A program made the translations under genes and the position numbers. From Escherichia coli (GTDB taxonomy: Bacteria > Pseudomonadota > Gammaproteobacteria > Enterobacterales > Enterobacteriaceae), in NCBI RefSeq assembly GCF_003019035.1, contig NZ_CP027447.1: a stretch of DNA of 64,000 nt, one strand, 5' to 3'. A model generated the notes under the pieces. That model was not told where the DNA came from, did not search any database, and worked only from the letters and a program-made list of their open reading frames with translations. Numbering within the stretch: position 1 is the stretch's first letter; every line of letters starts with the position of its first letter. This document shows, piece after piece, positions 21,171-57,715 of this stretch.

Positions 21171-21422
21171 TCAGAGCTGGTTCACCCCATCAAGAACATC
21201 CCCCTTTATCAAGCAACGCTGCGTCAGCGCCAGATCTTCCGATTGCGGGTCGCGCCCGGCGATGGGTTTGAGGACGAGTTTACGGTTGGGGGTATAAGTA
21301 AAACGCGTGAGCGCGGGATAGCTTAACTTGCCAAACCAGCCGTGAACACGCTGCCATTTGGCGTCTTTTACCTGATACAGACTGGTTATCCAGTAACCGG
21401 AATCAAACTGCATATCCAGCAA
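21171..21422 (-). pseudogene. C-terminal fragment of a host ORF split by the prophage
   Basis: (L)LDMQFDSGYWITSLYQVKDAKWQRVHGWFGKLSYP...VNQL joins in frame with the N-terminal fragment at 57707..58204 across the shared LLD codons. Confidence 0.7.
21414..21422. repeat. left copy of the 9-bp direct repeat flanking the prophage
   Basis: ATCCAGCAA is identical to 57707..57715. The adjacent bases differ, so the repeat is exactly 9 bp. Confidence 0.8.
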
Positions 21423-21450
21423 TTGCGTGTGGCCATTCCTTGATCAGACA

Positions 21451-21483
21451 TGAGATAAATGAAGGGGGATCCGTGAGATAAAT
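21451..21483 (+). repeat. left-end repeats (candidate transposase binding sites)
   Basis: TGAGATAAAT occurs at 21451..21460 and 21474..21483. The 13-mer CCGTGAGATAAAT at 21471..21483 recurs inverted at the right end (57652..57664). Confidence 0.6.
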
Positions 21484-21636
21484 AACGAATTGGAGTGGGT
21501 TAACATGGGTTCTGGTGAACAGAACTGAAATTCTTTTTCGTTATACGATAGATAAGTCGGACATTGAAATCATCCTTTCTGGCAACTTAGAATCGAGTTT
21601 GCTGAAACATGACTCGTAACAAAAAGGATGATTCCA

Positions 21637-21798
21637 ATGACTACTCAAAACAATAAGCATGATAGCCTGGATTACTCAGAAAAGCCCAAAAGCAAGCACA
21701 TCGTGACGTTCGAGCGCGATTCCGGTAGAAAAGGAGAATCGTCTTCCTCTGCCAATAAAAACACTATACCGGCAGCTCCTGCTCCGGGGAAAAAATAA
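21637..21798 (+). CDS. possible 53-aa hydrophilic ORF at the left prophage end (weak call)
   Basis: I read MTTQNNKHDSLDYSEKPKSKHIVTFERDSGRKGESSSSANKNTIPAAPAPGKK, with AAGGA 8 nt upstream. It is below the ORF-track cutoff and has no recognisable motif. Confidence 0.25.
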   Translation: MTTQNNKHDSLDYSEKPKSKHIVTFERDSGRKGESSSSANKNTIPAAPAPGKK

Positions 21799-21801
21799 AC
21801 A

Positions 21802-22434
21802 TCATTCATCGTTCGTTGCACGAACGCGCCTGATCTCCACTCTGGCAATCTGATCTGCTGGAATATAGGTTGCCAGAGCTCCCCAGTACTTATCAACCAC
21901 GCCTTTATACTCTTCCCATTCGTTACTGCCTGAAGGGCTGCTGTGTGTGACGTAAAGAACCATATCGCCTTTATTCCCCAGGGTAAACGGACCGTTAGGC
22001 CACTCTTCAAAGTTCCCTGGCAGTCGTGACATCATACCGGAACCATCGCGAAGAATCACTCTGACCTCGGTGACGCTGAAGTCTGTTTGATCAAACATTG
22101 CCTGCCATGCTGAGCTGGTATCGTCAGACCATGAAATATCATTATTCCACAGTAATCTGTACATCCATTTGCGACCGTACCTGCGCCACCACGCACCACA
22201 TGTAACAGCACACAGAAGTGCTGGTGGTGTTGCCAGCCAGGCATTCAGACCTGCCCACATAACAGCCTGGTAAGCCATCATTGCTGTCAGGCCAAAAATT
22301 AGCGAAGAAAAAGTCACCTCAATGGGTTTGTGCTGATCCTTCAGCCCCACATTCGCAATAAAATACCCAATATAGCCACTGGTCAGAGTCACCAGTGTTG
22401 CCCATGGCAAATTTAACAACGAAACGTCAAACAT
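21802..22434 (-). CDS. orphan 210-aa protein with three N-terminal TM helices and a soluble C-terminal domain
   Basis: MFDVSLLNLPWATLVTLTSGYIGYFIANVGL... with SD AGGGAGA 5 nt upstream of the ATG at 22432..22434. It is the last gene before the left end and lies downstream of a terminator. Confidence 0.7.
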   Translation of the reverse strand: MFDVSLLNLPWATLVTLTSGYIGYFIANVGLKDQHKPIEVTFSSLIFGLTAMMAYQAVMWAGLNAWLATPPALLCAVTCGAWWRRYGRKWMYRLLWNNDISWSDDTSSAWQAMFDQTDFSVTEVRVILRDGSGMMSRLPGNFEEWPNGPFTLGNKGDMVLYVTHSSPSGSNEWEEYKGVVDKYWGALATYIPADQIARVEIRRVRATNDE

Positions 22435-22471
22435 ATTTTCTCCCTGCATCCTGAATACTACAGAGAGAGCA

Positions 22472-22502
22472 TAAAAAAAGCACGGTAAGGGGTCTACCGT
22501 GC
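22472..22502 (-). terminator. rho-independent terminator after the mor-like gene
   Basis: Minus strand reads GCACGGTA-GACCCCT-TACCGTGC followed by TTTTTTTAT. Confidence 0.7.
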
Positions 22503-22548
22503 TTTTATACAATAAGGAGATTTTTGAAAGGACTTTAACAAGCAGGAA

Positions 22549-22947
22549 TTATCTGGATTTGTTAACGTCTCTCGTCTCTTCTGGCAGATCTTCATCAAAC
22601 AACCTGCCCTGCATCCGATCCAGTTCTTCTTTTCTGACCCGCTTAACCACGCTGTAGACCCACTGAAGCGAAACACCAAACTTGCGGGCCAGTTCATGGT
22701 GGTTGCGTCCGTTAAACTCCCGGAAGATTTCCCGGTCGCGCTGACTGACCTTCCATACCATGCCCATCGGGAAATAAACGTTTTGCCCGCCCCAGACCTG
22801 CATCATGCGGTTCGCGACGGCCTGACCAATCTGGTCGGCAATTGCGGGCTCAATATCAATAATCTCGCGAACGGTCTCAGAGGTATGCTGTGCCAGTTCC
22901 ACCAGGAGTTCCGGCCCTTTACTTCGAAACTGATTCAGGTCGCTCAT
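22549..22947 (-). CDS. Mor/C-family transcriptional activator
   Basis: 132 aa. The segment GGQNVYFPMG...RDREIFREFNGRNHHELARKFGVSLQWVYSVVKRVR matches the recalled Mu Mor pattern (GGxxVYxP...FNGRN..EL...YGV....VY). Confidence 0.85.
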   Translation of the reverse strand: MSDLNQFRSKGPELLVELAQHTSETVREIIDIEPAIADQIGQAVANRMMQVWGGQNVYFPMGMVWKVSQRDREIFREFNGRNHHELARKFGVSLQWVYSVVKRVRKEELDRMQGRLFDEDLPEETRDVNKSR

Positions 22948-23371
22948 GTTTTACTCCCGCAGCTCTGCGCTGCCACTTCTTCAGTTTCTCAATAACACTG
23001 CTTGCCTGTTCTGTATTGAGCCAGCGCAGGGCGCTGATGCCCGTTTCCCGCTTGATCCACCGCGCTAATGCATTTTCTGAACGGTCACGAACAATGCCGG
23101 CAGCAGCCATTTCAAGCCATAGCGCACGGATTTTCCTGGACTGCGGATGGTTATCCAGCGGTAAACCGGAGCTGGCTTTTCCGGCAGGCTTAACGCGAAA
23201 GCCTTTCCTTTTCATGGATTCCAGCACGCAGTTTAGTTGTGTGGTATCCATTCCTTTGGTTGAGGCTTTACCGGTCAGCCCCTGTAACATCTGGCGGTAG
23301 GTGTCTTCATCCATACCCAGTTCATTACGGGCAATATGAATGAGCTGGATAAGACGTTGTTTAGTCATCAT
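22919..23371 (-). CDS. GemA / Mu gp16-like early protein (DUF1018-type)
   Basis: MMTKQRLIQLIHIARNELGMDEDTYRQMLQGLTGKASTKGMDTTQLNCVLESMKRKGF is the typical GemA N-terminal pattern. The start was trimmed to the ATG at 23371. Confidence 0.8.
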   Translation of the reverse strand: MMTKQRLIQLIHIARNELGMDEDTYRQMLQGLTGKASTKGMDTTQLNCVLESMKRKGFRVKPAGKASSGLPLDNHPQSRKIRALWLEMAAAGIVRDRSENALARWIKRETGISALRWLNTEQASSVIEKLKKWQRRAAGVKHERPESVSK

Positions 23372-23576
23372 CGTTGCTCCTTTTACCTGCGCCACCGATA
23401 TAATCGACATATAAAGGAAGCGCCACAGGCCAGCACAGGAACATCACCGACCAGCTAATCCAGTAGCCGGCACCACTGTAACGTGAATAAAACCCTGAAC
23501 GGCGGTGCAGTTCAGCAGTACACCAACCGACAAAACAATACCAGAACAGGGCACATACAACAGATTCAGCCGTCAT
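23361..23576 (-). CDS. small (71-aa) two-TM membrane protein
   Basis: MTAESVVCALFWYCFVGWCTAELHRR...WSVMFLCWPVALPLYV. It is coupled by overlap to both neighbouring genes. Confidence 0.5.
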   Translation of the reverse strand: MTAESVVCALFWYCFVGWCTAELHRRSGFYSRYSGAGYWISWSVMFLCWPVALPLYVDYIGGAGKRSNDDD

Positions 23577-23796
23577 TCTGAATATCCCCCCAACTGATAT
23601 GAATATTACGGGCAGCAATGACAGGGTCGTTATCCCACCATGCACCTGACATGTATTTTTCAACCTGTTCGCGTCCGGCAATAACACCAATTGTGATCCC
23701 CGGCCTGACGTTCTTAAAAAAGGCGCGGGCAAAAAGGTATCTGGCAGATATTCGGCAGGCTTTTAATTTCCGGCTGTTACCTGATAGCGTAATCAT
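23566..23796 (-). CDS. hypothetical early protein (76 aa)
   Basis: It has an ATGA start/stop overlap with the upstream gene. No motif was recognised. Confidence 0.5.
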   Translation of the reverse strand: MITLSGNSRKLKACRISARYLFARAFFKNVRPGITIGVIAGREQVEKYMSGAWWDNDPVIAARNIHISWGDIQNDG

Positions 23797-24476
23797 CTGG
23801 CCTCCAGTTTCTGTTGTTCCTGCCCACTGACCGGGCGGTGCAGTCTGACGTTCTGCCCTTCACGAAACCCCGCATAGCGCGAGGCGTCACCATTGCGGCT
23901 TCTTCCCGGTTTACGCGCCCTGGTGGTTTGCGTTTGCGGGTATTTATGTTCCAGCCACTGCTGCATCAGTTCACGTTCGTCATCAGTCAGGGCGAAGGAC
24001 TGTATTTCACTGATAACGGCCAGCACCCAGCCTTCAGCAAACTGGTCTCCACGGCTGGTGCGGGTGGCGGTTTTTATTCTTTTGTTCTGTGTGCTGATAT
24101 ACTGCTGACGCGCCTTTTTCAGCTGGCGGGCCAGCACTTCCCAAGTGTACGCAGCCAGTGCGGCCCGTTCCCGGTTGCCGTAGAATCCCACACCCGGATA
24201 TGTGCCGGGGTGAATGATGGAGTTAACACCAAATGCCTCGCGGATGATGTTCATCAGGCCCAACATATAGCGCGGTGGACGGAGGCTGCCTGTCGGCCAG
24301 TAGTGGCTGATGGTTTCATCAATATCACTCATGGCAATGTCGGAATGTGTGATGCCGTGAACATCCATCAGTTTACGGGCACGGCGCAGTGCCAGAGCGG
24401 CCTCGTGCGGGTTGCCGGATGCAGCCAGCGCCAGCAGTTTTTTCAGTTTCTCAATGTGTTTATCCAGGTCTGTCAT
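23793..24476 (-). CDS. DUF2786-like early protein (227 aa)
   Basis: The N-terminus IEKLKKLLALAASGNPHEAALALRRARKLM is the pattern I associate with DUF2786. Confidence 0.65.
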   Translation of the reverse strand: MTDLDKHIEKLKKLLALAASGNPHEAALALRRARKLMDVHGITHSDIAMSDIDETISHYWPTGSLRPPRYMLGLMNIIREAFGVNSIIHPGTYPGVGFYGNRERAALAAYTWEVLARQLKKARQQYISTQNKRIKTATRTSRGDQFAEGWVLAVISEIQSFALTDDERELMQQWLEHKYPQTQTTRARKPGRSRNGDASRYAGFREGQNVRLHRPVSGQEQQKLEAR

Positions 24477-24778
24477 TGTTCGGTATCTCCGGTGTACATG
24501 ACGCCCAGCCGTGCGGCAAGGCGTTCCAGTTTTTTCTGTTTGTGGAAGTCAATCAGCCGGCCCATCCCCTGAAGACGCAACTGCTCTGTCATGATTTCCA
24601 CGTCTGCCAGCTCTGCCGCGAGGTCACTTTCGCTGCCCTGTCCGTTCAGGTTGCGGGCAGCACTGGCCGCCAGTTCGGCGGCCTCTTCTGTCAGTTTCAG
24701 GGCCTGTGCATCCGGCCCGAAACGCTGCAGAGCCAGACGATAGAGGGCAGTGCGTGTGAGTATGGTGTTCCGTGTCAT
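24473..24778 (-). CDS. small MazG-like nucleotide pyrophosphohydrolase candidate (101 aa)
   Basis: LTEEAAELAAS...AAELADVEIM fits the EExxE...ExxD metal-binding pattern of all-alpha MazG-like proteins. The assignment rests on this motif only. Confidence 0.5.
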   Translation of the reverse strand: MTRNTILTRTALYRLALQRFGPDAQALKLTEEAAELAASAARNLNGQGSESDLAAELADVEIMTEQLRLQGMGRLIDFHKQKKLERLAARLGVMYTGDTEQ

Positions 24779-24787
24779 GCCGCGCCC

Positions 24788-25060
24788 TCAGTGCTTCCGG
24801 TCGACGGTGATGTGCAGGCCGCCTTCTGCAGTGGTTTCCATCCGGTACGGCACCTCATGCTCTGCCGTGTGGGTGAGTGTGTTCACCAGTACCTGCAGGG
24901 CAGCCTCCTTTCCGTTGGTCGTCACAATGGCCTGAGCGGCCATGCTGATTAGCGCTGTCAGGACGTGCTTCACATCGGTGAGGTCGCGGCATTCACACTC
25001 GTTGACATAGTGTTCAACAAGGGTTCGGGTGCGCTGTCGTGCTTCCTGTGGGGTAATCAT
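24788..25060 (-). CDS. hypothetical early protein (90 aa)
   Basis: It is translationally coupled (ATGA) to the upstream zinc-ribbon ORF. Confidence 0.5.
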   Translation of the reverse strand: MITPQEARQRTRTLVEHYVNECECRDLTDVKHVLTALISMAAQAIVTTNGKEAALQVLVNTLTHTAEHEVPYRMETTAEGGLHITVDRKH

Positions 25061-25251
25061 TGCGAGTCCTCCCTGTCAGGGCGGGAGAATTCCATGACGG
25101 GCACGTCCGCTGAAAAATGTTGGCTGCAGTACGGACAGACCAGGGTGACGCGCACTGCAGGTACGTGGTACTTACCGGACATCACGGCGATGGCGCTGTG
25201 AAAACGCAGGGCTGTTATATCCCTCTCGCACTGAATACATTTAAATATCAT
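25057..25251 (-). CDS. small zinc-ribbon protein (64 aa)
   Basis: Contains CIQC...CPYC, two CxxC pairs. Confidence 0.55.
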   Translation of the reverse strand: MIFKCIQCERDITALRFHSAIAVMSGKYHVPAVRVTLVCPYCSQHFSADVPVMEFSRPDREDSQ

Positions 25252-25348
25252 GATTTAATTCTCCTCTGTTTCCGGCGTGCAGAAGCCCACGGCGCTGACG
25301 CCGGAATAAAAAAGAAAATGTTTTTATTAAATAATTAACGTGGTGTGT

Positions 25349-25879
25349 TTACTGCACATCCTGCTCAAAAGGAATTATTGAAAAATCCTCAATATCACTT
25401 TTTATGGTAATACCGGGAATATTTTTCACGGCCTCTTTTTCATTCAGAATGGCATCTTTATTTATTTCCTCTTTTACACGAATAAAGCGCTCAAGCCCCA
25501 GACGTCTCAGTAGTTCAATAACATTATCCGCTCCACGGATACTGACTGATGGCGGACGGTTTCGCCACTGCACCTCGCCGGTGGTGAGGTTAGCGAACTT
25601 CACCTTCCCGTTGCCGGTCAGTTCATCACGGTGTGCCTCACACCATGTCTGAATACCGGACTGCAGTTCGGCCATGCGTTTTTTCAGGCTCTCGGTGAGC
25701 GGGGCATAACGTGCGGTGATATCGCCAATGGCGTCATTCATTTCTGTTTCAGCCCTGACCAGTTCACGTTGTGCGTCACCGAGCAGTCTGATTCCCTCAA
25801 TGACCTCTTCGCGTGTCCCCGGTACCCAGAGTGCCGCTGCGGACTTGATACGTTTTGCCCCTTTTGTACTTTTTGCCAT
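25349..25879 (-). CDS. gam: Mu Gam-like host-nuclease inhibitor (DNA-end binding)
   Basis: MAKSTKGAKRIKSAAALWVP...ETEMNDAI...WCEAHRDELT..GKVK.ANL.TG.V.WR.RPPSVSIRG...GLERFIR.K.EINK.AIL...ITIKSDIEDFSIIPFEQ is near-colinear with recalled Mu Gam. Confidence 0.9.
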   Translation of the reverse strand: MAKSTKGAKRIKSAAALWVPGTREEVIEGIRLLGDAQRELVRAETEMNDAIGDITARYAPLTESLKKRMAELQSGIQTWCEAHRDELTGNGKVKFANLTTGEVQWRNRPPSVSIRGADNVIELLRRLGLERFIRVKEEINKDAILNEKEAVKNIPGITIKSDIEDFSIIPFEQDVQ

Positions 25880-25906
25880 ATCTTATGATTTCTCCGGTTG
25901 TGCTGA

Positions 25907-26176
25907 TTACCACAAAGATTCCGGCCACACGACGCGACAGCCGTGCAGTTCGAAAACGCCCTGACGGAAATATCCCCTGTGGTCATGTCCGGTATACAGA
26001 TAACAGGCCTTTCCCTGCTCAAGCATGCGCATGCAATGCGCACTTCGGGAAACGCGGATGACAGGTTTGTTACCCCTGATGGTGATGCTTTGTACATCCG
26101 TGTTCGTCGCCTTAAGCGCCATAATGGCTGACTGCACTTTGCTGATTTGCTGGTTGATACCTGTGGTGGATTTCAT
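25907..26176 (-). CDS. hypothetical early protein (89 aa)
   Basis: The ORF lies between the MuB-like gene and gam. No motif was recognised. Confidence 0.5.
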   Translation of the reverse strand: MKSTTGINQQISKVQSAIMALKATNTDVQSITIRGNKPVIRVSRSAHCMRMLEQGKACYLYTGHDHRGYFRQGVFELHGCRVVWPESLW

Positions 26177-26178
26177 TA

Positions 26179-27345
26179 TTAAACCCCTTTGACAACGTCA
26201 GCGTTGACCTGTGGAACCCCGATTTCAGCGGCCAGATTCATGGCGGCTATCACCAGGTTACTGACGGCCAGCGGATACAACAGGCTGACCATATTTTTAC
26301 GATGACTTCCCGGATTGCTCAGGCGGGCACGTATGGCATCCACTGCACTGGCGTCCATAATGTCCGTCAGTTGTTTACCTGCCCGTTGCAGTTTGAACGT
26401 CAGAAACTCTTCAAGGTTATTGTCCAGAGGCAGAAGTTCGACCACCTCACAGCGCTGAACGACTTCACGGACTTCCATATTGCGTTCAGACAGTTTTGTC
26501 GCCAGTTCCGGCTGGCCAATCAGCACGATGGACAGCAGTTTTTTGAAACCGGACTCCAGCTCAAAAAAGCGTTTGAGGTGTTTCAGTGTCGGAATGGGCA
26601 GACTGTGGGCCTCCTCAATCACCAGAACGTGGCTGAACCCCGCCTGGCTGCTGTCTTTCAGGACGCGATGCAACTGGCGAAAGCGGGCGTCCTGACTGCG
26701 TCTGATGCTTTCCAGTGGTGCGATGGTACTGATAATGGCTTCGGCAATAGCTGCTGCCTTCAGGGTTTTCCCTTTCACATCGTTGTCTTCCATAGCGATG
26801 ATGTATGGCTCGATAACAATTACCGGCGCATTCTCGCGGTTGATACGTTCAGTCAGGTCGCGGCGCAGCGTGGATTTACCCGCACCGGACTCACCGATGA
26901 CGGCCATAAACCCACCATGACGGGCTGTCTGGTACAACGCCTCACGCACGTAGCGAATGTCCGGGGTGGTGAACACATCATCAGAACCCTGCATGGCTTC
27001 GTCGGCGAACGGGTCACGGAAAAGACCAAACGCTTTTTTGGTTGCTGGAAATAACACCTGTTTTTTGAGTAACATATTCTCTTCCTCACTGAGGCTCGTT
27101 TTATCTGTGGTACCCGCTGTACGGGGCGTGGCCGCGCCCTGTACAGCATCAAAACTCTTCGCTGTATCAATCCCCTGACTTTCCAGCCAGGACGCAAGAC
27201 GCCGGCGCACTTCTCCGGGGCTGGTGCGGGGCCACGCGTTATGATTCACAATCTGGGCCAGCGTGGCCTCAGAAACATCGACAGCTCTCGCCACCACCGC
27301 CTGTGGAATACGGGCCTCTTTCAGTTGCTGCTTCAGTACCAGCAT
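26179..27345 (-). CDS. MuB-like AAA+ transposition ATPase / target DNA activator
   Basis: It has an N-terminal HTH-like segment and Walker A GESGAGKSTL. The start was set at MLVLKQQL (SD GGAGGG), directly after the transposase gene. Confidence 0.85.
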   Translation of the reverse strand: MLVLKQQLKEARIPQAVVARAVDVSEATLAQIVNHNAWPRTSPGEVRRRLASWLESQGIDTAKSFDAVQGAATPRTAGTTDKTSLSEEENMLLKKQVLFPATKKAFGLFRDPFADEAMQGSDDVFTTPDIRYVREALYQTARHGGFMAVIGESGAGKSTLRRDLTERINRENAPVIVIEPYIIAMEDNDVKGKTLKAAAIAEAIISTIAPLESIRRSQDARFRQLHRVLKDSSQAGFSHVLVIEEAHSLPIPTLKHLKRFFELESGFKKLLSIVLIGQPELATKLSERNMEVREVVQRCEVVELLPLDNNLEEFLTFKLQRAGKQLTDIMDASAVDAIRARLSNPGSHRKNMVSLLYPLAVSNLVIAAMNLAAEIGVPQVNADVVKGV

Positions 27346-27355
27346 GTTTCCCTCC

Positions 27356-29125: not shown

Positions 29126-29128
29126 TGG

Positions 29129-30043: not shown

Positions 30044-30053
30044 TGATTACTCC

Positions 30054-30362
30054 TTACAAACGACTACCTGAAATAACTCGTTGGTTGATTTCGTTAATAC
30101 GATCCTGTGCACGCGCCATCTCGTGACTGTGAGCCATGGCGATCTGTAGTAACTGGATTCCCGGTGCGAAACGTCCGTTCTCTAATTTCATGGCCAGTCC
30201 CTCTTCAATAAGGGTATTAAGTGCTCGATTGATATTCGCCGGGGACTCCCCCAGGGCTGATGCCAGTTCACCGTTAGAAACACCGTTCAGAGCATGACCG
30301 CGTAGAGCTTTGAGTACACGTAGGATGCGGCTCCCGGAACTGGAAATATTTACTTTACTCAT
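30054..30362 (-). CDS. winged-helix (IclR-N/MarR-like) DNA-binding protein
   Basis: SRILRVLKALRGHALNGVSNGELASALGESPANINRALNTLIEEGL. An alternative start at 30425 would overlap the end of the ner-like gene. Confidence 0.6.
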   Translation of the reverse strand: MSKVNISSSGSRILRVLKALRGHALNGVSNGELASALGESPANINRALNTLIEEGLAMKLENGRFAPGIQLLQIAMAHSHEMARAQDRINEINQRVISGSRL

Positions 30363-30382
30363 GTCACATTTCCATTTTTGCA

Positions 30383-46998: not shown

Positions 46999-47006
46999 AA
47001 TCCCCT

Positions 47007-47402: not shown

Positions 47403-47484
47403 TGCCCTCGATACTGACGATCTGGAGATGTGGCTGGAGCAGGCTGAAGAGCAAATCAAAAGCGAGTTCGGCGACAATCAGTAA
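47067..47484 (+). CDS. frameshift-extended chaperone (gpE+E'-like); the shift site is somewhere in 47227..47399
   Basis: An overlapping ORF (47227..47484) in the +1 frame encodes ...WFRFQPGEIDALDTDDLEMWLEQAEEQIK. Fusion of the two frames is inferred by analogy with P2 E/E+E'. Confidence 0.55.
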
Positions 47485-47577
47485 CAACGTATCACTTAAC
47501 AGCCGCCAGTCGCGGCTGTTCTGCATGGGTTTCAGACACTTCCCTTCCGTTTTTTTTGCTTTCAGAGGATAGCCACC

Positions 47578-50927: not shown

Positions 50928-51139
50928 TGTTTCTTGAACATATTACCCGTGACGGAGAGCGCTGGGATTCGCTGGCATGGCAGTACTACGGTGACCCGCT
51001 GGGCTATCCCCGGATTATTGCAGCCAATCCGCACGTGGCCATTACGCCGGTGCTGCCCTCCGGGTTGTTGTTACTGATCCCGGTTATTGAGGCTGAAGAT
51101 GCCCGTACAGAAGAGGATATTGCCCCATGGCTGAGATAA
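50924..51139 (+). CDS. P2 gpX-like tail protein
   Basis: 71 aa. GERWDSLAWQYYGDP...IIAANPHV...LLLIP resembles the gpX pattern. Confidence 0.75.
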   Translation: MMFLEHITRDGERWDSLAWQYYGDPLGYPRIIAANPHVAITPVLPSGLLLLIPVIEAEDARTEEDIAPWLR

Positions 51140-52281: not shown

Positions 52282-52805
52282 CTGGTGTCACCCGTCAGAT
52301 CGGTACGGTCAGTGCCGTTGATGCCGACAGGGTTCAGGCCCGCGTTCGTCTGCCTGAATGCGATAATCTGCGCACAAACTGGCTTAACGTGCTACAGCGC
52401 AATACCCAGGATAACAAGGATTACTGGCTCCCTGACGTGGGGGAGCAGGTTGAGGTGCTGCTCGATGCCAACGGCGAGGATGGTGTTATTCTGGGCGCGG
52501 TGTACTCAGACGTCGATAAACCGCCGTTCAGTGATAAAAACGTCCGGGGTACGAAATACGCTGATGGCGCGGAGTTCAGTTATAACCGCGCGACCCATAC
52601 GCTGACGGTCAGAGGAGGTATTGAGCGTATCGTGGTGGAGGTTGCCGCTGATATCTCTCTCAAAGGGAAAAAACTCGACCTCACGGGAGTTACCACGATC
52701 AACGGCCCCGCGACACTCAATGGTGATCTGGAAATCAACGGAAGCGCCCATGCAACGGGTAACATATTTGCTGATGGTCAGAACTCTAATCACCATTCCC
52801 ATTGA
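52278..52805 (+). CDS. baseplate spike protein (P2 gpV / Mu gp45-like)
   Basis: 175 aa. VRLPECDNLRTNWLNVLQ...WLPDVGEQVEVL is an OB-fold spike motif. Confidence 0.8.
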   Translation: MTGVTRQIGTVSAVDADRVQARVRLPECDNLRTNWLNVLQRNTQDNKDYWLPDVGEQVEVLLDANGEDGVILGAVYSDVDKPPFSDKNVRGTKYADGAEFSYNRATHTLTVRGGIERIVVEVAADISLKGKKLDLTGVTTINGPATLNGDLEINGSAHATGNIFADGQNSNHHSH

Positions 52806-52821
52806 ACCTTCTTAAACGCCT

Positions 52822-52861
52822 TTAATATCGGCGCTTACTTCCCGGGGGCAATACTGCCTCC
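52822..52861 (+). promoter_or_regulatory. late-promoter-like bipartite motif, copy 4 (upstream of the baseplate W gene)
   Basis: TTAATATC at 52822 and CTGCCTCC at 52854, spacing 32 nt. The second box abuts the ATG at 52862. Confidence 0.35.
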
Positions 52862-53209
52862 ATGAAAACGACCTCAGTATTCTGGCAACCAGCTCTGCAG
52901 GCTCCCGGCGAAATCGTCCGGGGGCTGGATGATATCCGGCAGTCCATCCAGATCATCCTGCGGACTCCCCGCGGCAGCGACCCGCATCGCCCGGAGTTCG
53001 GCAGCAATCTGCACCTTTATATCGACTGGCCTGTCGACCGGGCCATTCCGCATGTGGTTCGCGAATCCGTCGATGCCATCAGGCGCTGGGAACCCCGCTG
53101 CCAGCTTATGTCGGTTAAACCCGCCGTCGACGGCGAACATCTTACGCTCCGGGTGAGCTGGAAAGGCTCAGACGGACAACCCCGTACTCAGGAACTGCTA
53201 TGGCGCTGA
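52862..53209 (+). CDS. baseplate wedge protein (GPW/gp25-like)
   Basis: 115 aa. IRQSIQIILRTPRGSDPHRPEFGSNL is the hallmark motif. Confidence 0.8.
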   Translation: MKTTSVFWQPALQAPGEIVRGLDDIRQSIQIILRTPRGSDPHRPEFGSNLHLYIDWPVDRAIPHVVRESVDAIRRWEPRCQLMSVKPAVDGEHLTLRVSWKGSDGQPRTQELLWR

Positions 53210-54303
53210 CAGAACCCGATTTTATTGAACGCGATGCCGATAAAATCACGGCAGAAATGATTGCGAAGTATGAAGAGGATACCGGAAAAACGCTGTACCC
53301 GGCACAGGCTGAACGTCTGCTGATTGACCTGTGGGCCTATCGCGAAATGCTGGTCAGGGTGGCAGTACAGGAGGCGGCGAAGCAGAATCTGGTCGCTTTT
53401 TCCCGTGAGCCGATGATTGATTACCTCGGTGAACTGGTCGGTGTATACCGCCTTGCCGCGCAGCCTGCCACCACCACACTTCAGTTCTCTGTGGATGAGG
53501 CACTGGCCATTGATGTGCTGATCCCGGCAGGCACCCGCGTCAGCGCTTCCGACAGTATTATTTTTGCCACCGATACAGACGTGGTGCTGAAGGCCGGATT
53601 GCTGCTGGTCAATGTCACGGCCACCTGTACCGAGCCGGGTACCGCTGGCAACGGCTGGCAACCGGCGCAGGTCAGTCAGTTACTCGATGAGATTGATAAC
53701 ATTGACCTGCTGGTGACCAATCTGACGGCCAGCTCTGGCGGTTCAGAGCAGGAAGACGATGACCGGCTCCGGGAGCGTATCAGGCTGGCCCCGGAGTCAT
53801 TCACCAATGCCGGAAGCCGTGGTGCATACCGTTTTCATGCTATGGGGGCGCATCCCGGCATTGTCGACGTTGCTGTTCTTTCTCCCGCTCCCGGCACTGT
53901 CGAGCTGTATCCGCTGCTCAGCACTGGTCTGCCGGACAGCAGTATCCTCACTCTGGTAGAGAGTTTCTGTTCTGACGAAAAAGTCAGACCACTCACTGAT
54001 ACCGTGCGGGCTAAAACACCTGTTCAGGTGGATTACACCATTGAAGCCAGGATTACGATCTATCGTGATCAGGATGCAAGGTTGGTAAAGGACAACGCTA
54101 ACAGCGCCATACAGAACTGGGTGGCATCCCGTACCGCCACGCTGGGGCGCGATATTGTTCCCAGCCAGATTATCAGCGTGTTGTCCGTTTCCGGGGTGTA
54201 CCAGGTCGAACTGGTGACACCGGCACTGAGGGTGGTGGCAGAAAACGAATGGGCAAACTGTACGGCGATCACTCTTAACATGACCGGGGTGTCCGATGGC
54301 TAA
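53200..54303 (+). CDS. baseplate J-like protein (Mu gp47)
   Basis: 367 aa. FIERDADKITAEMIAKYEEDTGKTLYPAQAERLLIDLWAY is typical of the J family. Confidence 0.85.
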   Translation: MALTEPDFIERDADKITAEMIAKYEEDTGKTLYPAQAERLLIDLWAYREMLVRVAVQEAAKQNLVAFSREPMIDYLGELVGVYRLAAQPATTTLQFSVDEALAIDVLIPAGTRVSASDSIIFATDTDVVLKAGLLLVNVTATCTEPGTAGNGWQPAQVSQLLDEIDNIDLLVTNLTASSGGSEQEDDDRLRERIRLAPESFTNAGSRGAYRFHAMGAHPGIVDVAVLSPAPGTVELYPLLSTGLPDSSILTLVESFCSDEKVRPLTDTVRAKTPVQVDYTIEARITIYRDQDARLVKDNANSAIQNWVASRTATLGRDIVPSQIISVLSVSGVYQVELVTPALRVVAENEWANCTAITLNMTGVSDG

Positions 54304-54874
54304 GGTGCTACAACTCCCGCCACCGCTTGAGGGTGATATCAGTCTCAGAACGCTGGGAAGACTGGCCGGACGGCTGGATAACATCGACCTGAGCGTACTG
54401 ATGGTCGGTCTCGTCGATATTGTCGACAGTTCCGCGCTGCCATGGCTTGGCGAGCAGTTCTCGCTGTTCGGCGATGGCTGGGAACTGGCGGAATCGGACG
54501 ATGTACGCCGCATGCTTATCAAATCCGCTATCGAGCTACACCGCTATAAAGGAACACCGTGGTCAATCCGGGAAATTATCCGCCGTTTTGGCTTCGGCGA
54601 AGTGGATCTGATTGAAGGTACGGGGCAGATTGGCTATGACGGCAGACACACGTACAACGGGCTTTTCGTCCATGGTGATGCACAAGCCTGGGCAGTCTAT
54701 CGCGTCATCTTTCAACAACCCATCACTAACGATCAGGCGGCGCTGTTACGTCAGACGCTTGCTGCCTTTGCTCCGGCTCGCTGTCATCTGGCAAGTCTGG
54801 AATATCAGTCTGTCGCCATTCGATACAACAGTACTACCTGTTATGACGGTAGTTACAACCACGGGAGCAGTTAA
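54296..54874 (+). CDS. P2 gpI-like tail protein (Mu gp48)
   Basis: 192 aa. LLPPPLEGD...HRYKGTPWSIREII is typical of the family. Confidence 0.8.
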   Translation: MAKVLQLPPPLEGDISLRTLGRLAGRLDNIDLSVLMVGLVDIVDSSALPWLGEQFSLFGDGWELAESDDVRRMLIKSAIELHRYKGTPWSIREIIRRFGFGEVDLIEGTGQIGYDGRHTYNGLFVHGDAQAWAVYRVIFQQPITNDQAALLRQTLAAFAPARCHLASLEYQSVAIRYNSTTCYDGSYNHGSS

Positions 54875-54876
54875 TT

Positions 54877-55845
54877 ATGGCAAATCTACCCGAAACCCCG
54901 CAGTGGGAAAGCGGCATCTACCAGATTGAGGTCTCTGACCCCGTTCTGGGCGGACCTGACGGAATTTCTAACCGCCAGGCTAAACAACTGGCCAGCCGAA
55001 CGTCATACCTCAAACAGAAGGTCGAAAAAAGCGGAACAGACCTGGCTGCACATATCGCGGCAGTTGACCCGCATACCCAGTACGCGACGAAAGCCAGTCC
55101 GACATTCACCGGCACACCAACAGCACCTACACCTGCAAATGGTGATAACAGCAAAAAGCTGGCGACGACGGAGTTTGTGGCCAAAGCACTTGCGGCACTT
55201 GCAGGCAGCGCCCCTGAGACACTGGATACGCTTAAAGAGCTGGCTGACGCTCTCGGTAATGATCCAAACTTTGCGACTACGGTACTGAACAAGCTGGCGG
55301 AAAAGCTGGCTAAAGACCAGAACGGCGCAGATATTCCTGAGCCTGCGCTGTTTGTCAAAAACCTTGGTTTGGGGGAAGGCTCTGCACTGCCCGTTGGTGT
55401 GCCCGTTCCGTGGCCCTTAGCAACACCACCAACGGGCTGGCTGAAATGTAACGGTGCAGCATTTTCTTCTGAAATGTACCCCAAACTGGCAAAAGCCTAC
55501 CCCGCGAATAAATTACCGGATTTACGCGGAGAATTTATCCGTGGCTGGGATGATGGGCGAGGAATTGATGCGGCACGCGCTTTATTGAGCATTCAAAACG
55601 GGATGTTGGAAAAACACCGCCATATTGTTGTAGCTAACGATGGATATGACACAAAAGATGAATGGGAGTTGGCTACGATTTTCAAAAAAACATATACACA
55701 AGGCAGGGGGCTTGATGCCACAAATACAGGAGGGAGTTTGACTCCATCACCAACGCTTCATTCACGAGGAAGTATTGGTAACACAGGTGGTAGTGAAACC
55801 CGCCCCCGCAATATTGCATTTAACTATATCGTGAGGGCGGCTTAG
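54877..55845 (+). CDS. tail fibre, currently expressed form (constant N-terminus plus variable tip A)
   Basis: 322 aa. The N-terminus is MANLPETPQWESGIYQIEVSDPVLGGPDGISNRQAKQLA. The gene crosses the left inversion site at 55352..55377. The tip ends ETRPRNIAFNYIVRAA. Confidence 0.85.
   Translation: MANLPETPQWESGIYQIEVSDPVLGGPDGISNRQAKQLASRTSYLKQKVEKSGTDLAAHIAAVDPHTQYATKASPTFTGTPTAPTPANGDNSKKLATTEFVAKALAALAGSAPETLDTLKELADALGNDPNFATTVLNKLAEKLAKDQNGADIPEPALFVKNLGLGEGSALPVGVPVPWPLATPPTGWLKCNGAAFSSEMYPKLAKAYPANKLPDLRGEFIRGWDDGRGIDAARALLSIQNGMLEKHRHIVVANDGYDTKDEWELATIFKKTYTQGRGLDATNTGGSLTPSPTLHSRGSIGNTGGSETRPRNIAFNYIVRAA
55352..55377. repeat. left inversion crossover site (gix/hix-like)
   Basis: TTGTCAAAAACCTTGGTTTGGGGGAA. 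Compare the recalled hix reverse strand TTATCAAAAACCTTGGTTTTCAAGAA. Confidence 0.75.
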
Positions 55846-55851
55846 TTATAT

Positions 55852-56469
55852 TCAACTGGCTGCTGCCAGAGGCATTTCCGGCCAGTTGATATCCGGTGCA
55901 GTGCTGATGTCAGTCGCATTAAGCACATCTATGAAATCAAGCACGGCGTTTAGTTTTTCCGTCTCCTGGGGCGTCAATCGGCGTCCGGCTCGTAGTTTGA
56001 GATTTATAAGCTCAACAGATGCCATTGCCTGTTCCTCAAGTTGCTGACGATGCACTCCGGCAGCTTCCAGTTCTGCTGCGTGCTGTCGTCCCGCATCTGT
56101 CACCCAGGTCTCACCATCCCAGACATCATAGATAGTAGCTGGCTGTTTCACCGTCGTATCAGGAGGGTAATCTCCCGGTTGTGTGATTTGCACAGCGTTA
56201 CCATTCTCTGTGCTGTAAACCGTTTCGCCTCTGTGGTCTGGAACATATTTCCAGATGTTCTGGTCGGTATCACGACAGACAGCGAAGCCGGGGCGTTTTT
56301 CTGGTGGCGCGTCAATGCATGAGTGAGCCGGAATTCCAACACCATAAGCGAGATACTCAACAGTGGCAGAGAGATATTCACGGTTTTCAGCATCGTAGTT
56401 ATAAACGGTAATATCGCCTGCAGTTATAGCGATACCATTCTGATCAAGTACTGCAGCAGCATTATTCAT
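55852..56469 (-). CDS. tail fibre assembly chaperone (Tfa/Mu U-like), serving the silent tip B
   Basis: 205 aa. ITVYNYDAENREYL...IYDVWDGETWVTD...LNAVLDFIDVLNATDIS is a typical Tfa. Its start overlaps the tip B stop (TAATG). Confidence 0.8.
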   Translation of the reverse strand: MNNAAAVLDQNGIAITAGDITVYNYDAENREYLSATVEYLAYGVGIPAHSCIDAPPEKRPGFAVCRDTDQNIWKYVPDHRGETVYSTENGNAVQITQPGDYPPDTTVKQPATIYDVWDGETWVTDAGRQHAAELEAAGVHRQQLEEQAMASVELINLKLRAGRRLTPQETEKLNAVLDFIDVLNATDISTAPDINWPEMPLAAAS

Positions 56470-56972
56470 TAAGTAGCCCTTACAATATAGTTAAACGCAA
56501 TATTACGGGGGCGGTTTTCCGTTCCTGTATTCCCTCCGTTGGCACCTAATCTATAAACACCACGAGTGCCAATAGCACGTAGTGAAGATGGAACTTTTAC
56601 ACCTGACTCATCTGTTTTAACAATCCCGCCATCACCGTATGTAGCCAGTATACCAGGGTTTGTTCCTGCACGGGTGCTATTTGCGGCAAGCCCTTCACCA
56701 GTCCATAACTCCATATAGTGAATATGATCTATAACCGAATGTGATTGTGCATTAAGCAAGGAACGCCCTGAATCAATTCCCCGCCCGTCATCCCAGCCGC
56801 GAATAAACTCACCCCGTAAATCCGGTAATTTATTCGCGGGGTAGGCTTTTGCCAGTTTGGGGTACATTTCAGAAGAAAATGCTGCACCGTTACATTTCAG
56901 CCACCCTGCTGGCGGTGTGGCTGAGGGCCACGGAACGGGCACACCAACGGGCAGTGCAGAGCCTTCCCCCAA
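56469..56972 (-). CDS. alternative tail-fibre tip B cassette (silent in this orientation)
   Basis: GEGSALPVGVPVPWPSATPPAGWLKCNGAAFSSEMYPKLAKAYPANKLPDLRGEFIRGWDDGRGID closely matches tip A residues, then diverges. It has no start context of its own. Confidence 0.75.
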   Translation of the reverse strand: MGEGSALPVGVPVPWPSATPPAGWLKCNGAAFSSEMYPKLAKAYPANKLPDLRGEFIRGWDDGRGIDSGRSLLNAQSHSVIDHIHYMELWTGEGLAANSTRAGTNPGILATYGDGGIVKTDESGVKVPSSLRAIGTRGVYRLGANGGNTGTENRPRNIAFNYIVRAT

Positions 56973-56989
56973 ACCAACGTTTTCGTCTT
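56964..56989. repeat. right inversion crossover site (gix/hix-like)
   Basis: TTCCCCCAAACCAACGTTTTCGTCTT. Its inner half is the exact inverted copy of the left site's inner half (GGTTTGGGGGAA). The central dinucleotide is TT/AA. Confidence 0.75.
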
Positions 56990-57043
56990 AACTCCCACCT
57001 ATACCAGCTATGTATTTTTAACAAAACAAAGAGGATATTTTTC

Positions 57044-57616
57044 ATGCAAATTGGCTACATTCGTGTGTCAACAAATGACCAGAATACAGATTTACAACGA
57101 AACGCACTGAACTGCGCAGGATGTGAACTGATTTTTGAGGATAAAATCAGCGGAACAAAGTCAGCCCGACCGGGATTGAAAAAGCTGCTCAGAACGTTAT
57201 CAGAAGGAGATACGCTCGTTGTCTGGAAGCTGGACAGGCTGGGCAGAAGCATGAAACACCTCATCACTCTTATTGAGGAACTGCGGGAAAAAGGGGTTAA
57301 CTTCCGTAGTCTTACAGACAGCATTGATACGTCAACACCCATGGGACGTTTCTTTTTTCACGTCATGGGGGCTTTAGCGGAAATGGAGCGTGAATTAATA
57401 GTTGAACGAACACTGGCCGGACTTGAAGCAGCACGTGCACAGGGGCGTATTGGTGGACGTCGTCCGAAACTGACAAAAGAGCAACATGAACAAATAGCAA
57501 GGCTGATCAAAAATGGCTATAGCAGGAAACAGTTGGCAATTATTTACGATATCGGTATATCGACGATTTATCGTTATCACCCTGTAGAGGAACTTCAAAC
57601 TCAAGCTGAGTTGTAA
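57044..57616 (+). CDS. serine DNA invertase (Gin/Hin/Pin family)
   Basis: MQIGYIRVSTNDQNTDLQRNAL...VVWKLDRLGRSMKHLI...MGRFFFHVMGALAEMERELIVERT is very close to recalled Pin/Gin. The listed longer ORF was trimmed to this ATG. Confidence 0.9.
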   Translation: MQIGYIRVSTNDQNTDLQRNALNCAGCELIFEDKISGTKSARPGLKKLLRTLSEGDTLVVWKLDRLGRSMKHLITLIEELREKGVNFRSLTDSIDTSTPMGRFFFHVMGALAEMERELIVERTLAGLEAARAQGRIGGRRPKLTKEQHEQIARLIKNGYSRKQLAIIYDIGISTIYRYHPVEELQTQAEL

Positions 57617-57651
57617 TTCTTTTTCTGATATTGAAATGCCGCGGCGATGTA

Positions 57652-57664
57652 ATTTATCTCACGG
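57652..57664 (-). repeat. right-end copy of the terminal 13-mer (candidate transposase binding site)
   Basis: ATTTATCTCACGG is the inverted copy of CCGTGAGATAAAT at 21471..21483. A degenerate copy (CGTTTATCGC) lies nearer the end, at about 57674..57683. Confidence 0.55.
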
Positions 57665-57706
57665 AAATAGGTACGTTTATCGCGCGGCGCATCAATTCCT
57701 TTGTAA

Positions 57707-57715
57707 ATCCAGCAA
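57707..57715. repeat. right copy of the 9-bp direct repeat flanking the prophage
   Basis: ATCCAGCAA is identical to 21414..21422. Confidence 0.8.

What the first reader, a model, noticed from the sequence alone, without database searches (positions are those of the whole stretch)
21414..57715. Mu-like prophage inserted between ascB and hycI, with early and late operons diverging from a central immunity region
From my recollection of K-12, ascB is followed by a short spacer and then hycI. Here 36,284 bp intervene. The gene content is that of a transposable phage: DDE transposase, MuB-like ATPase, Gam, GemA, Mor, DUF3486/TerL/portal/MuF, and a Gin-controlled fibre. The layout is not Mu's. The ner-transposase-B-gam-gemA-mor operon reads leftward to the left end. 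The lysis, head and tail genes read rightward from the middle, and the tail module is P2-like (FI, FII, E/E', T, U, X, D, V, W, J, I). From memory this matches the BcepMu-type arrangement rather than Mu or D108. No core gene looks disrupted, so the element may be inducible.
Basis: partly seen in the sequence, partly recalled or inferred. Interest (0 to 1): 0.55.

Follow-up and report, generated by a model that had tools for sequence, protein, structure and literature searches.

The report
BcepMu-type transposable prophage in E. coli
This is an apparently intact 36.3-kb transposable (Mu-style) prophage of the already known BcepMu type, which jumped into a small gene of unknown function between ascB and hycI in this E. 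coli strain; relatives are common in E. coli, so it is a clean but ordinary find.

Summary
The element is window 21441-57694 (36,254 bp). It has 5'-TG...CA-3' tips and a 6-bp target duplication (ATTCCT). It lies inside a 251-aa hypothetical ORF that this lineage carries between ascB and hycI, not in a bare spacer.

The joined flanks are 100% identical to the uninterrupted site in other E. coli genomes. No complete genome of 5,426 shares this junction.

Of 55 ORFs, 36 match BcepMu proteins in collinear order and only 11 match Mu. The transposase carries an rve domain, has an intact DDE triad and is 68% identical to BcepMu TnpA. The ATPase is 59% identical to BcepMu gp08. Neither has any BLAST similarity to Mu A or B.

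The layout is BcepMu's. A leftward early operon ends in Mor. An XRE repressor reads rightward. Then come the lysis genes, a Mu-like head and a P2-like tail. Additions relative to BcepMu are a Mu-type Gam and a Gin invertase with a two-cassette invertible fibre segment.

Related prophages cover at least 80% of the left 24 kb in 202 of 5,426 genomes, at varied sites. No core gene is disrupted.

This is a new member of a known kind and of low interest.

The parts
21435..21440 (.). left copy of the 6-bp target-site duplication, ATTCCT
   Evidence: The same hexamer follows the right tip. The empty site in other genomes has it once.
21441..57694 (.). whole prophage, 36,254 bp, 5'-TG...CA-3'
   Evidence: Homology to relatives starts at 21441. 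The ends are identical in strains 12089 and A24, which sit at other sites with their own 6-bp duplications, TCTGGC and GCAAAT.
57695..57700 (.). right copy of the target-site duplication, ATTCCT
21171..21440 (-). 3' part of the disrupted host ORF (251-aa hypothetical protein between ascB and hycI)
   Evidence: The intact ORF is annotated in strain TCM3e1, L003 2504-3259. It has no Pfam family.
57695..58204 (-). 5' part of the same disrupted host ORF
21441..21483 (+). left end with two putative transposase-binding repeats (ATGAGATAAAT at 21450-21460, GTGAGATAAAT at 21473-21483)
   Evidence: This motif with <=1 mismatch occurs only at the two ends in the whole 64 kb. The sites lie at nt 10-20 and 33-43 from the tip, as in BcepMu.
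57652..57694 (-). right end with the mirrored repeats (GTGAGATAAAT at 57652-57662; degenerate GCGCGATAAAC at 57675-57685)
21637..21798 (+). 53-aa accessory ORF at the left end
   Evidence: Annotated as a hypothetical protein (WP_001571575) in relatives. BcepMu has no equivalent.
21802..22512 (-). accessory ORF (about 210 aa used, phrog_12870, unknown function)
22549..22947 (-). Mor-family late activator, last core gene of the early operon
   Evidence: Pfam Mor, E = 1e-43. 56% identical to BcepMu gp01 and 31% to Mu Mor.
22919..23410 (-). GemA
   Evidence: Pfam GemA, E = 1e-40. 44% identical to BcepMu gp02.
23361..25251 (-). small early genes, including a DUF2786/DUF7168 protein (23793-24476)
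25349..25879 (-). Gam, host-nuclease inhibitor
   Evidence: Pfam Phage_Mu_Gam, E = 6e-41. 63% identical to Mu Gam. BcepMu has no homologue.
26179..27372 (-). transposition ATPase (ExeA/AAA_22 type), the functional analogue of Mu B
   Evidence: AAA_22, E = 4e-20. phrog_296, 'DNA transposition protein'. 59% identical to BcepMu gp08, no Mu B hit. Walker A motif GESGAGKS.
27356..29125 (-). DDE transposase (rve core)
   Evidence: Pfam rve only. phrog_310 transposase. 68% identical to BcepMu TnpA and 56% to B3. D160/D254/E290 lie in conserved contexts.
29129..30043 (-). DUF3102 protein (BcepMu gp10 homologue)
30054..30425 (-). winged-helix regulator (BcepMu gp12 homologue)
   Evidence: HTH_IclR. 34% identical to gp12.
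30415..30603 (-). 62-aa HTH protein, first gene of the early operon (positional analogue of Ner/Cro)
   Evidence: HTH_31. 45% identical to BcepMu gp16, no Mu Ner hit.
30604..30689 (.). divergent control region with a candidate early promoter on the minus strand (TTGACA-17-CATAAT, 30679 to 30651) and three TATGTGA repeats
   Evidence: 11/12 consensus match; sequence read. Function is inferred.
30690..31115 (+). XRE-family repressor (GTG start, GAGG Shine-Dalgarno)
   Evidence: HTH_31/HTH_3 only, no peptidase domain. 39% identical to BcepMu gp17.
31112..32098 (+). 328-aa single-pass membrane protein, start overlapping the repressor stop (ATGA); lysogeny-expressed cargo of unknown function
   Evidence: phrog_10002. 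No hit in the Pfam-A copy scanned here; the homologue search lists a precomputed PF27202.1. No PADLOC hit. TM helix 186-208. Family of 24 clusters; those with a source name are from Enterobacterales. AF2 model with two confident domains and no PDB fold match.
32223..33832 (.). accessory block of mixed orientation: orf75 (probable remnant near the Dam slot), orf71 (phrog_4490), orf134 (phrog_2266), orf247 (phrog_3787)
33930..35681 (+). lysis cassette: holin, SLT endolysin, Rz with an embedded Rz1 candidate (MKKVRAIPLSACLLAVSC...)
   Evidence: Holin_2-3 and SLT. 51%, 59% and 31% identical to BcepMu gp21-23. Embedded ORF.
35678..44747 (+). head module: gp25/gp26 homologues, TerS (Mu gp27/DUF3486), TerL, Mu-type portal, MuF, G, protease/scaffold I, major capsid, head-completion genes
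44737..54874 (+). P2-like contractile tail and baseplate: FI, FII, E (+E' ORF at 47347-47484), tape measure, U, X, D, V, W, J, I
   Evidence: Pfam hits. 28-77% identical to BcepMu gp39-51.
54877..55845 (+). tail fibre gene in the current orientation (constant part plus cassette 1)
   Evidence: Collar domain. N-terminus 55% identical to BcepMu gp52.
55352..56989 (.). invertible segment bounded by gix-like sites (55352-55377 and 56964-56989) at the outer edges of 212-nt inverted repeats
55852..56469 (-). tail-fibre assembly chaperone, co-oriented only with the alternative cassette
   Evidence: Caudo_TAP, E = 2.5e-25
56469..56972 (-). alternative fibre C-terminal cassette
   Evidence: Collar domain. 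97% identical to the cassette in strain 12089.
57044..57616 (+). Gin-family serine invertase
   Evidence: Resolvase + HTH_7. 75% identical to Mu Gin. Start mapped from L002.

Best explanation
Window 21441-57694 is a complete temperate transposable phage genome of the BcepMu type: a Mu-like head, a P2-like contractile tail and a Tn552/rve-type transposase.

How it got here: it integrated by DDE transposition into a 251-aa ORF between ascB and hycI and made a 6-bp duplication.

Lysogeny (inferred from homology and layout): an XRE repressor (30690-31115) is transcribed rightward together with a 328-aa membrane-protein cargo gene. It silences a leftward early promoter in the 86-bp control region.

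Derepression (inferred): the early operon is expressed leftward. It encodes a Ner/Cro analogue, a winged-helix regulator, a DUF3102 protein, the transposase, the AAA+ target-DNA ATPase, Gam, GemA and finally Mor.

Replication and late expression (inferred): the transposase and ATPase replicate the genome by repeated transposition. Mor switches on the rightward lysis, head and tail operon. A Mu-type TerS/TerL/portal set packages by headful with host DNA attached at both ends.

Host range (inferred): a Gin invertase flips a 1.6-kb segment and swaps the C-terminal receptor-binding cassette of the tail fibre.

Shown here: the ends, the duplication, the empty site, gene homologies and order, intact reading frames, an intact DDE triad and Walker A motif, and the inverted gix-like sites. 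Inferred: promoter use, the Mor-driven late switch, replicative transposition, headful packaging, actual inducibility and actual inversion.
For: Ends and insertion:
- TG...CA tips and 6-bp duplications at three independent insertions: ATTCCT here, TCTGGC in strain 12089, GCAAAT within mdfA in A24.
- The reconstructed empty site is 100% identical over 790 nt in other genomes. The interrupted ORF is annotated intact in TCM3e1.
- Terminal GTGAGATAAAT repeats occur only at the two ends, with the same spacing as in BcepMu.

Homology and layout:
- 36 of 55 ORFs hit BcepMu proteins in collinear order; 11 hit Mu.
- The transposase is 68% identical to BcepMu TnpA. All 69 phage records with a hit are BcepMu-, B3- or related types, none Mu.
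- Pfam, PHROGs and PDB-alignment evidence for the DDE core, the ATPase, and the head, tail, lysis and invertase genes.
- The published BcepMu organisation matches: genes 1-13 on the bottom strand, control region at genes 16/17, then holin-endolysin-Rz/Rz1, then head and a P2-like tail, with a Tn552-IS1604 family transposase and terminal CA (PMC2771037; PMC2628397).

Population context:
- The closest phage record, Escherichia phage PhiKM, is filed under Bcepmuvirus.
- 202 of 5,426 complete E. coli genomes carry a relative covering >=80% of the left 24 kb, at many positions.

Integrity:
- All core ORFs are full length against relatives.
- The element is collinear with strain 12089's prophage over 95% of its length. 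The immunity block comes from an A24-type element.
Against: - No experiment shows activity. Point mutations that abolish function cannot be excluded.
- In the present orientation the fibre gene is not followed by a co-oriented assembly chaperone. The fibre region has two cassettes where strain 12089 has five, so particles made in this orientation might lack functional fibres.
- The repressor has no S24 peptidase domain, so SOS induction is doubtful.
- TerL is a divergent allele, 24% identical to BcepMu TerL, though both Pfam domains are complete.
- Nucleotide similarity to BcepMu itself is below megablast detection, so strict genus membership is not shown.
Confidence: 0.9

Rival explanations
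1. It is a defective (cryptic) BcepMu-type prophage. It is structurally complete but cannot produce infective particles, for example because of the reduced fibre/chaperone region or unseen missense defects.
For: - Only one Tfa gene is present, and it is oriented with the silent cassette.
- Relatives do decay: A24 has a frameshifted baseplate J.
- The gut-phage preprint title states that temperate gut phages are predominantly inactive (10.1101/2023.08.17.553642, listed).
Against: - All 36 BcepMu-homologous ORFs are full length, and the ends and duplication are perfect.
- This junction was not found in any other complete genome, which suggests a recent insertion.
- Gin and both gix-like sites are intact, so the chaperone-linked cassette can be brought into register.
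- Strain 12089 has the same single-Tfa layout.
Confidence: 0.3
2. It is a true Mu-family (Muvirus: Mu, D108, SfMu) prophage with a rearranged early region.
For: Gam (63%), Gin (75%), Mor, GemA, portal, F and G have Mu homologues. The size, 36.3 kb, is close to Mu's 36.7 kb.
Against: - BLAST finds no similarity to Mu A, B, c or ner.
- Pfam finds only rve, none of the Mu transposase domains.
- No Muvirus record appears among the 69 phage hits for the transposase.
- The duplication is 6 bp, not 5 bp.
- The tail genes are P2-type, not Mu L/M/N/P.
- There is no megablast hit to Mu.
Confidence: 0.02
3. The interval holds two adjacent or nested elements, for example a P2-like prophage next to a Mu-like remnant, rather than one phage.
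For: The tail genes are P2-like while the head genes are Mu-like.
Against: - There is one pair of matching ends and one duplication.
- There is no integrase, cos site or P2 capsid gene set.
- The same head-plus-tail combination in the same order is the defining architecture of BcepMu.
- Independent insertions in other genomes carry the whole 36 kb as a unit.
Confidence: 0.02

Closest known systems
Burkholderia phage BcepMu (NC_005882) and phiE255, genus Bcepmuvirus
   Same: - Same gene order and strand layout.
- Homologous rve transposase (68%), ExeA-type ATPase (59%), gp10/12/16/17 regulators, holin-SLT-Rz/Rz1, Mu-like head and P2-like tail: 36 collinear homologues in all.
- TG...CA tips and two terminal repeats at nt 10-20 and 33-43.
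   Different: - Protein identities are only 24-77%, and there is no megablast-level DNA similarity.
- This element adds a Mu-type Gam and a Gin invertase with an invertible fibre cassette. BcepMu has no inversion system (PMC2771037).
- The TerL allele differs.
- It lacks BcepMu gp03-gp07 and the right-end acyltransferase.
- It carries different cargo genes.
Escherichia phage PhiKM (PQ738613), Klebsiella phage KP12, and the BcepMu-like prophages of E. coli strains 12089 and A24
   Same: About 95-99% DNA identity over most modules, with identical ends. Strain 12089's prophage covers 95% of this element.
   Different: - The module mix is mosaic. The immunity-plus-cargo block (30656-32259) is of the A24/IAI39 type, while the rest is 12089-like.
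- TerS/TerL differ from PhiKM and A24.
- There are two fibre cassettes instead of five.
- The insertion site is unique among the genomes searched.
Escherichia phage Mu (NC_000929)
   Same: Transposable temperate myovirus of the same size. It shares Gam, Gin with an invertible fibre segment, Mor, GemA, portal, F, G and gp36.
   Different: - The transposase, B, repressor and ner are unrelated.
- Mu's early operon reads rightward from the left end.
- Mu makes a 5-bp duplication (established knowledge); this element makes 6 bp.
- Mu has its own tail genes, and Com/Mom, which are absent here.
Pseudomonas phage B3 group
   Same: Homologous transposase (56%). The early operon is inverted relative to Mu (PMC5977238).
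   Different: B3 has a siphovirus tail (PMC2771037). This element has a P2-like contractile tail.

Membership tests
BcepMu-like transposable phages (architecture-level group) | rve-core (Tn552/IS1604-type) transposase homologous to BcepMu gp09 | tested here: met
   68% identity over 98% of the length. Pfam rve only. DDE residues conserved.
BcepMu-like transposable phages (architecture-level group) | ExeA/AAA-type transposition ATPase next to the transposase | tested here: met
   59% identity to gp08. AAA_22.
BcepMu-like transposable phages (architecture-level group) | early genes on the bottom strand reading to the left end; control region at the strand switch; then lysis, head and tail on the top strand | tested here: met
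   ORF map and homologue order. Published description in PMC2771037.
BcepMu-like transposable phages (architecture-level group) | 5'-TG...CA-3' termini with repeated transposase-binding motifs | tested here: met
   The TG...CA character is stated in PMC2628397.
BcepMu-like transposable phages (architecture-level group) | Mu-like head genes joined to P2-like tail genes in P2 order | tested here: met
BcepMu-like transposable phages (architecture-level group) | random host DNA at both ends of packaged virion DNA (replicative transposition) | not testable with these tools
   This needs virion DNA. The only indirect support is that three relatives sit at three unrelated sites, each with a 6-bp duplication.
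Genus Bcepmuvirus in the strict sense (same genus as BcepMu) | high genome-wide nucleotide identity to BcepMu (the ICTV genus guideline of about 70%, recalled from memory) | tested here: not met
   Megablast of both halves against the phage collection gives no BcepMu hit. Protein identities are 24-77%. GenBank nevertheless files the near-identical PhiKM under Bcepmuvirus.
Muvirus (Mu, D108, SfMu) | Mu A transposase and Mu B ATPase | tested here: not met
   No BLAST hit at E <= 1e-3. No Mu transposase Pfam domains.
Muvirus (Mu, D108, SfMu) | c repressor at the left end with a rightward ner-A-B early operon | tested here: not met
   The orientation is opposite. The repressor and the Ner analogue are unrelated to Mu's.
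Muvirus (Mu, D108, SfMu) | 5-bp target duplication | tested here: not met
   6 bp at three insertions.
P2-like phages (Peduoviridae) | P2 tail gene set FI, FII, E/E', T, U, X, D, V, W, J, I | tested here: met
   Pfam Phage_tube, Phage_TAC_7, P2_GpU, Tail_X, GPD, base_V, GPW_gp25, Baseplate_J and Tail_P2_I.
P2-like phages (Peduoviridae) | tyrosine integrase with att site, cos ends and the P2 capsid/terminase genes Q, P, O, N, M, L | tested here: not met
   The head and terminase genes are Mu- or BcepMu-type. Insertion is by transposition with a duplication. No integrase appears among the ORFs or in the relatives' annotation.

The most novel reading that the evidence does not exclude
The 328-aa bitopic membrane protein (31112-32098) is translationally coupled to the repressor gene, so it is presumably made in lysogens. 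It could be an uncharacterised lysogenic-conversion or superinfection-exclusion/defence factor. It has two confidently predicted domains that match no solved fold, and no PADLOC hit. Every homologue that carries a source name comes from Enterobacterales. It occupies the slot of the BcepMu gp18 membrane protein but has no BLAST similarity to it.
Probability: 0.3. Interest if true: 0.4.

Novelty: new member of a known kind. Interest (0 to 1): 0.15.

Why it matters
This has modest practical value only.

- It gives a cleanly delimited BcepMu-type transposable prophage in E. coli, with exact ends and a 6-bp duplication that separates the family from Mu.
- It shows that these elements are common and mosaic in E. 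coli (202 of 5,426 complete genomes). They combine a BcepMu chassis with Mu-type Gam and Gin modules.
- For this strain, the insertion inactivates a small gene of unknown function. It adds a mobile element that may still transpose, cause insertional mutations and transduce host DNA.
- It does not open a new biological question.

Tried and rejected
- **Mu-family membership:** rejected.
- **Two juxtaposed elements:** rejected. There is one pair of ends, and the architecture is that of BcepMu.
- **Defence annotation of accessory ORFs:** PADLOC gave nothing for seven of them. The repressor had only weak HTH hits.
- **Cargo328 function:** there was no hit in the Pfam copy used, and PHROGs placed it only in unknown-function families. 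The homologue search found 24 clusters, all 'hypothetical'. The AF2 model was good for two domains, but Foldseek against the PDB gave no match below E = 0.3. I did not pursue AFDB.
- **Evidence of active inversion:** I compared two isolates of strain 8178 whose BLAST piece counts differed. Their fibre regions are arranged identically, so this gave no evidence.
- **A 20-nt inverted match** between 55560-55579 and the right end plus duplication. End-like 14-mers with <=2 mismatches occur at about the chance rate, and the duplicated hexamer is host sequence. I judged it coincidental.
- **PDB sequence search with the transposase and ATPase:** only a weak retroviral-integrase hit, useful for placing the DDE residues, and non-specific P-loop hits.
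- **Technical:** several fetched loci never appeared in the script sandbox. I obtained the BcepMu and Mu proteins through dummy alignments A1 and A2.

Full report
**Boundaries and target**

Megablast of the left 24 kb against 5,426 complete E. coli genomes shows that homology to related prophages begins at window 21441 (query position 442). The sequence there reads ...GGCCATTCCT|TGATCAGACATGAGATAAAT..., and the right side reads ...GCGCGGCGCATCA|ATTCCTTTGTAA....

The element is therefore 21441-57694 (36,254 bp) with 5'-TG...CA-3' tips and a 6-bp direct duplication, ATTCCT. Two independent relatives have identical tips and their own 6-bp duplications: TCTGGC in strain 12089 (inside a lambdoid J gene) and GCAAAT in strain A24 (inside mdfA). 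A 6-bp duplication is thus a property of this group. Mu makes 5 bp (established knowledge).

I joined the flanks after removing one copy of the duplication. The resulting 790-nt sequence is 100% identical to uninterrupted sites in several genomes and is present at >=80% coverage in 1,462 of 5,426 genomes. In those genomes the site lies inside a 756-bp ORF encoding a 251-aa hypothetical protein between ascB and hycI. That protein has no Pfam family.

K-12 has only a 158-bp spacer here. No genome in the collection carries the same junction: the best coverage is 91%, and every hit starts at the phage end. The wider flanks are the ordinary alaS-recA-srl-nor-hypF-asc / hyc region.

**Gene content**

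- Early genes: an rve-core DDE transposase (27356-29125, minus strand), an AAA_22/ExeA-type ATPase, a DUF3102 protein, two HTH proteins, Gam, GemA and Mor.
- Head and tail genes: Mu gp27 (DUF3486), a TerL with complete Terminase_6N and 6C domains, Portal_Mu, Mu_F, sheath, FII tube, the E chaperone, tape measure, P2 GpU, X, D, V, W, J and I.
- Lysis, fibre and invertase genes: a Collar-domain fibre, a Caudo_TAP chaperone, a resolvase-type invertase, a holin and an SLT endolysin.
- An Rz gene holds an embedded ORF with a lipoprotein-like signal, a candidate Rz1.

**Which kind of transposable phage**

I compared all 55 predicted proteins with the BcepMu and Mu proteomes. Thirty-six hit BcepMu proteins in strictly collinear order (gp01, 02, 08, 09, 10, 12, 16, 17, 21-23, 25-32, 34-41, 44-52). 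Only 11 hit Mu.

The transposase is 68% identical to BcepMu TnpA and 56% to B3 TnpA. None of the 69 phage records that it hits is a Muvirus. Neither the transposase nor the ATPase has any BLAST similarity to Mu A or B.

The catalytic residues D160, D254 and E290 sit in contexts identical to those in BcepMu, and a Walker A motif is present in the ATPase.

The terminal motif GTGAGATAAAT, allowing one mismatch, occurs in the 64-kb window only at 21450, 21473 and (inverted) 57652. These sites lie at nt 10-20 and 33-43 from each tip. BcepMu has its repeats at the same positions.

The strand layout matches the published description of BcepMu: bottom-strand early genes, the control region at the strand switch, holin-endolysin-Rz/Rz1, then head and a P2-like tail, with a Tn552-IS1604 family transposase and terminal CA (PMC2771037; PMC2628397). 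B3-like phages share the inverted early operon (PMC5977238).

The nearest deposited phage, Escherichia phage PhiKM, is filed under Bcepmuvirus.

**Differences from BcepMu**

- Gam (63% identical to Mu Gam) and a Gin invertase (75% identical to Mu Gin) have no BcepMu counterpart. BcepMu is reported to have no fibre inversion system (PMC2771037).
- TerS/TerL is a distinct allele. TerL is 24% identical to BcepMu TerL and 98% identical to that of strain 12089.
- DNA similarity to BcepMu is below megablast detection. Strict same-genus membership is therefore not demonstrated, even though the architecture is the same.

**Regulatory region (layout shown, function inferred)**

The 86-bp gap 30604-30689 separates the leftward 62-aa HTH gene (45% identical to BcepMu gp16) from the rightward XRE repressor. 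The repressor starts at GTG 30690 after a GAGG Shine-Dalgarno and is 39% identical to gp17. The gap contains an 11/12 sigma-70 match on the minus strand and three TATGTGA repeats.

The repressor has only an HTH domain, so RecA-stimulated self-cleavage is unlikely. This is an inference.

**The cargo gene**

The repressor's stop codon overlaps the start of a 328-aa ORF in a low-GC stretch (0.43). The ORF encodes a single-pass membrane protein. It has no hit in the Pfam-A copy scanned here or in PADLOC and matches only unknown-function PHROGs. The homologue search does list a precomputed Pfam entry, PF27202.1, for some members.

Its family comprises 24 clusters, all 'hypothetical'. Those with a source name are from Enterobacterales. 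An AlphaFold model gives two confident domains with no PDB fold match.

The repressor-plus-cargo block occurs at about 99% identity in 125 E. coli genomes.

**Fibre region**

Inverted repeats of 212 nt (55358-55569 and 56772-56983, 93% complementary) have gix-like sites at their outer edges. These are TTGTCAAAAACCTTGGTTTGGGGGAA at 55352 and its inverted partner at 56964-56989.

Compared with strain 12089, which has five cassettes, this element retains two. The differences map to the repeated cassette heads. The single chaperone gene (55852-56469, minus strand) is co-oriented only with the currently silent cassette. Strain 12089 shares this single-chaperone layout.

No other complete genome has exactly this arrangement. 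Whether the present orientation yields functional fibres is unknown.

**Integrity and population context**

The element is collinear with strain 12089's prophage over 95% of its length at 94-98% identity. The immunity block instead matches the A24 type at 98.7%. The element is thus a mosaic of known modules.

All core ORFs are full length against relatives. By contrast, A24 has a frameshifted baseplate J.

Relatives covering >=80% of the left 24 kb occur in 202 of 5,426 genomes at scattered positions. The transposase family is found in 208 species-representative genomes across Enterobacterales, Burkholderiales, Neisseriales and Pseudomonadales.

Bcepmuvirus prophages have been noted in ST131 E. 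coli (bioRxiv 10.1101/2022.05.07.487787). They have also been reported among induced gut Pseudomonadota phages (PMC12629997).

**Verdict**

The finding is real and was correctly interpreted, apart from small coordinate errors and the overlooked host ORF. It is one more, apparently intact, member of a known and common group. Interest is low.

The only open item is the unknown function of the repressor-linked membrane protein and the other accessory ORFs.

Noticed in passing
window 31112-32098 (+): A 328-aa single-pass membrane protein is translationally coupled to the repressor gene. Its homologues (24 clusters) are all 'hypothetical', and those with a source name are from Enterobacterales. Two domains are confidently predicted, with no PDB fold match. 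Its N-terminal GDVGNVVSGDVTI motif echoes the repressor's C-terminal HGDVLGNVIKGNVTIG.
   Followed up: partly
window 47061-47484 (+): The E' ORF (47347-47484) overlaps the end of gpE in the +1 (equivalently -2) frame, not the -1 frame recalled for P2. An A5 run at 47337-47341 is the only obvious shift-prone site. The 45-aa E' segment alone gave no Pfam hit; PGAP names its homologue 'GpE family'.
   Followed up: partly
window 55560-55579 vs 57681-57700: A 20-nt inverted match (18/20, with an exact 12-mer) links a site inside the fibre gene to the right phage end plus the host duplication. End-like 14-mers occur at the chance rate, so this is probably coincidence.
   Followed up: yes
window 21171-21440 and 57695-58204 (-): The disrupted host gene encodes a 251-aa protein with no Pfam family. 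The joined flanks match at >=80% coverage in 1,462 of 5,426 complete E. coli genomes, and the gene is absent from K-12. Its function is unknown.
   Followed up: partly
window 21637-22512: Two convergent accessory ORFs lie between the left end and Mor: a 53-aa ORF on the plus strand and an ORF of about 210 aa on the minus strand (phrog_12870). They are conserved in E. coli relatives, absent from BcepMu and of unknown function.
   Followed up: no
window 32223-33832: An accessory block lies between the immunity and lysis genes. orf75 looks like a remnant next to the slot where strain 12089 and PhiKM carry a Dam methylase. orf247 (phrog_3787) has a weak P-loop-like N-terminus, and A24 has a KAP-NTPase fragment in this slot.
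   Followed up: no
window 36312-38179; L001, L006: At least three TerS/TerL alleles segregate among otherwise near-identical E. coli BcepMu-like prophages: 438 aa here and in strain 12089, 531 aa in PhiKM and 507 aa in A24.
   Followed up: partly
L006 (E. coli A24) 33838-34943: The closest relative for the immunity block has a frameshifted baseplate J gene and interrupts mdfA. This is an example of decay and of gene disruption by this phage family.
   Followed up: yes
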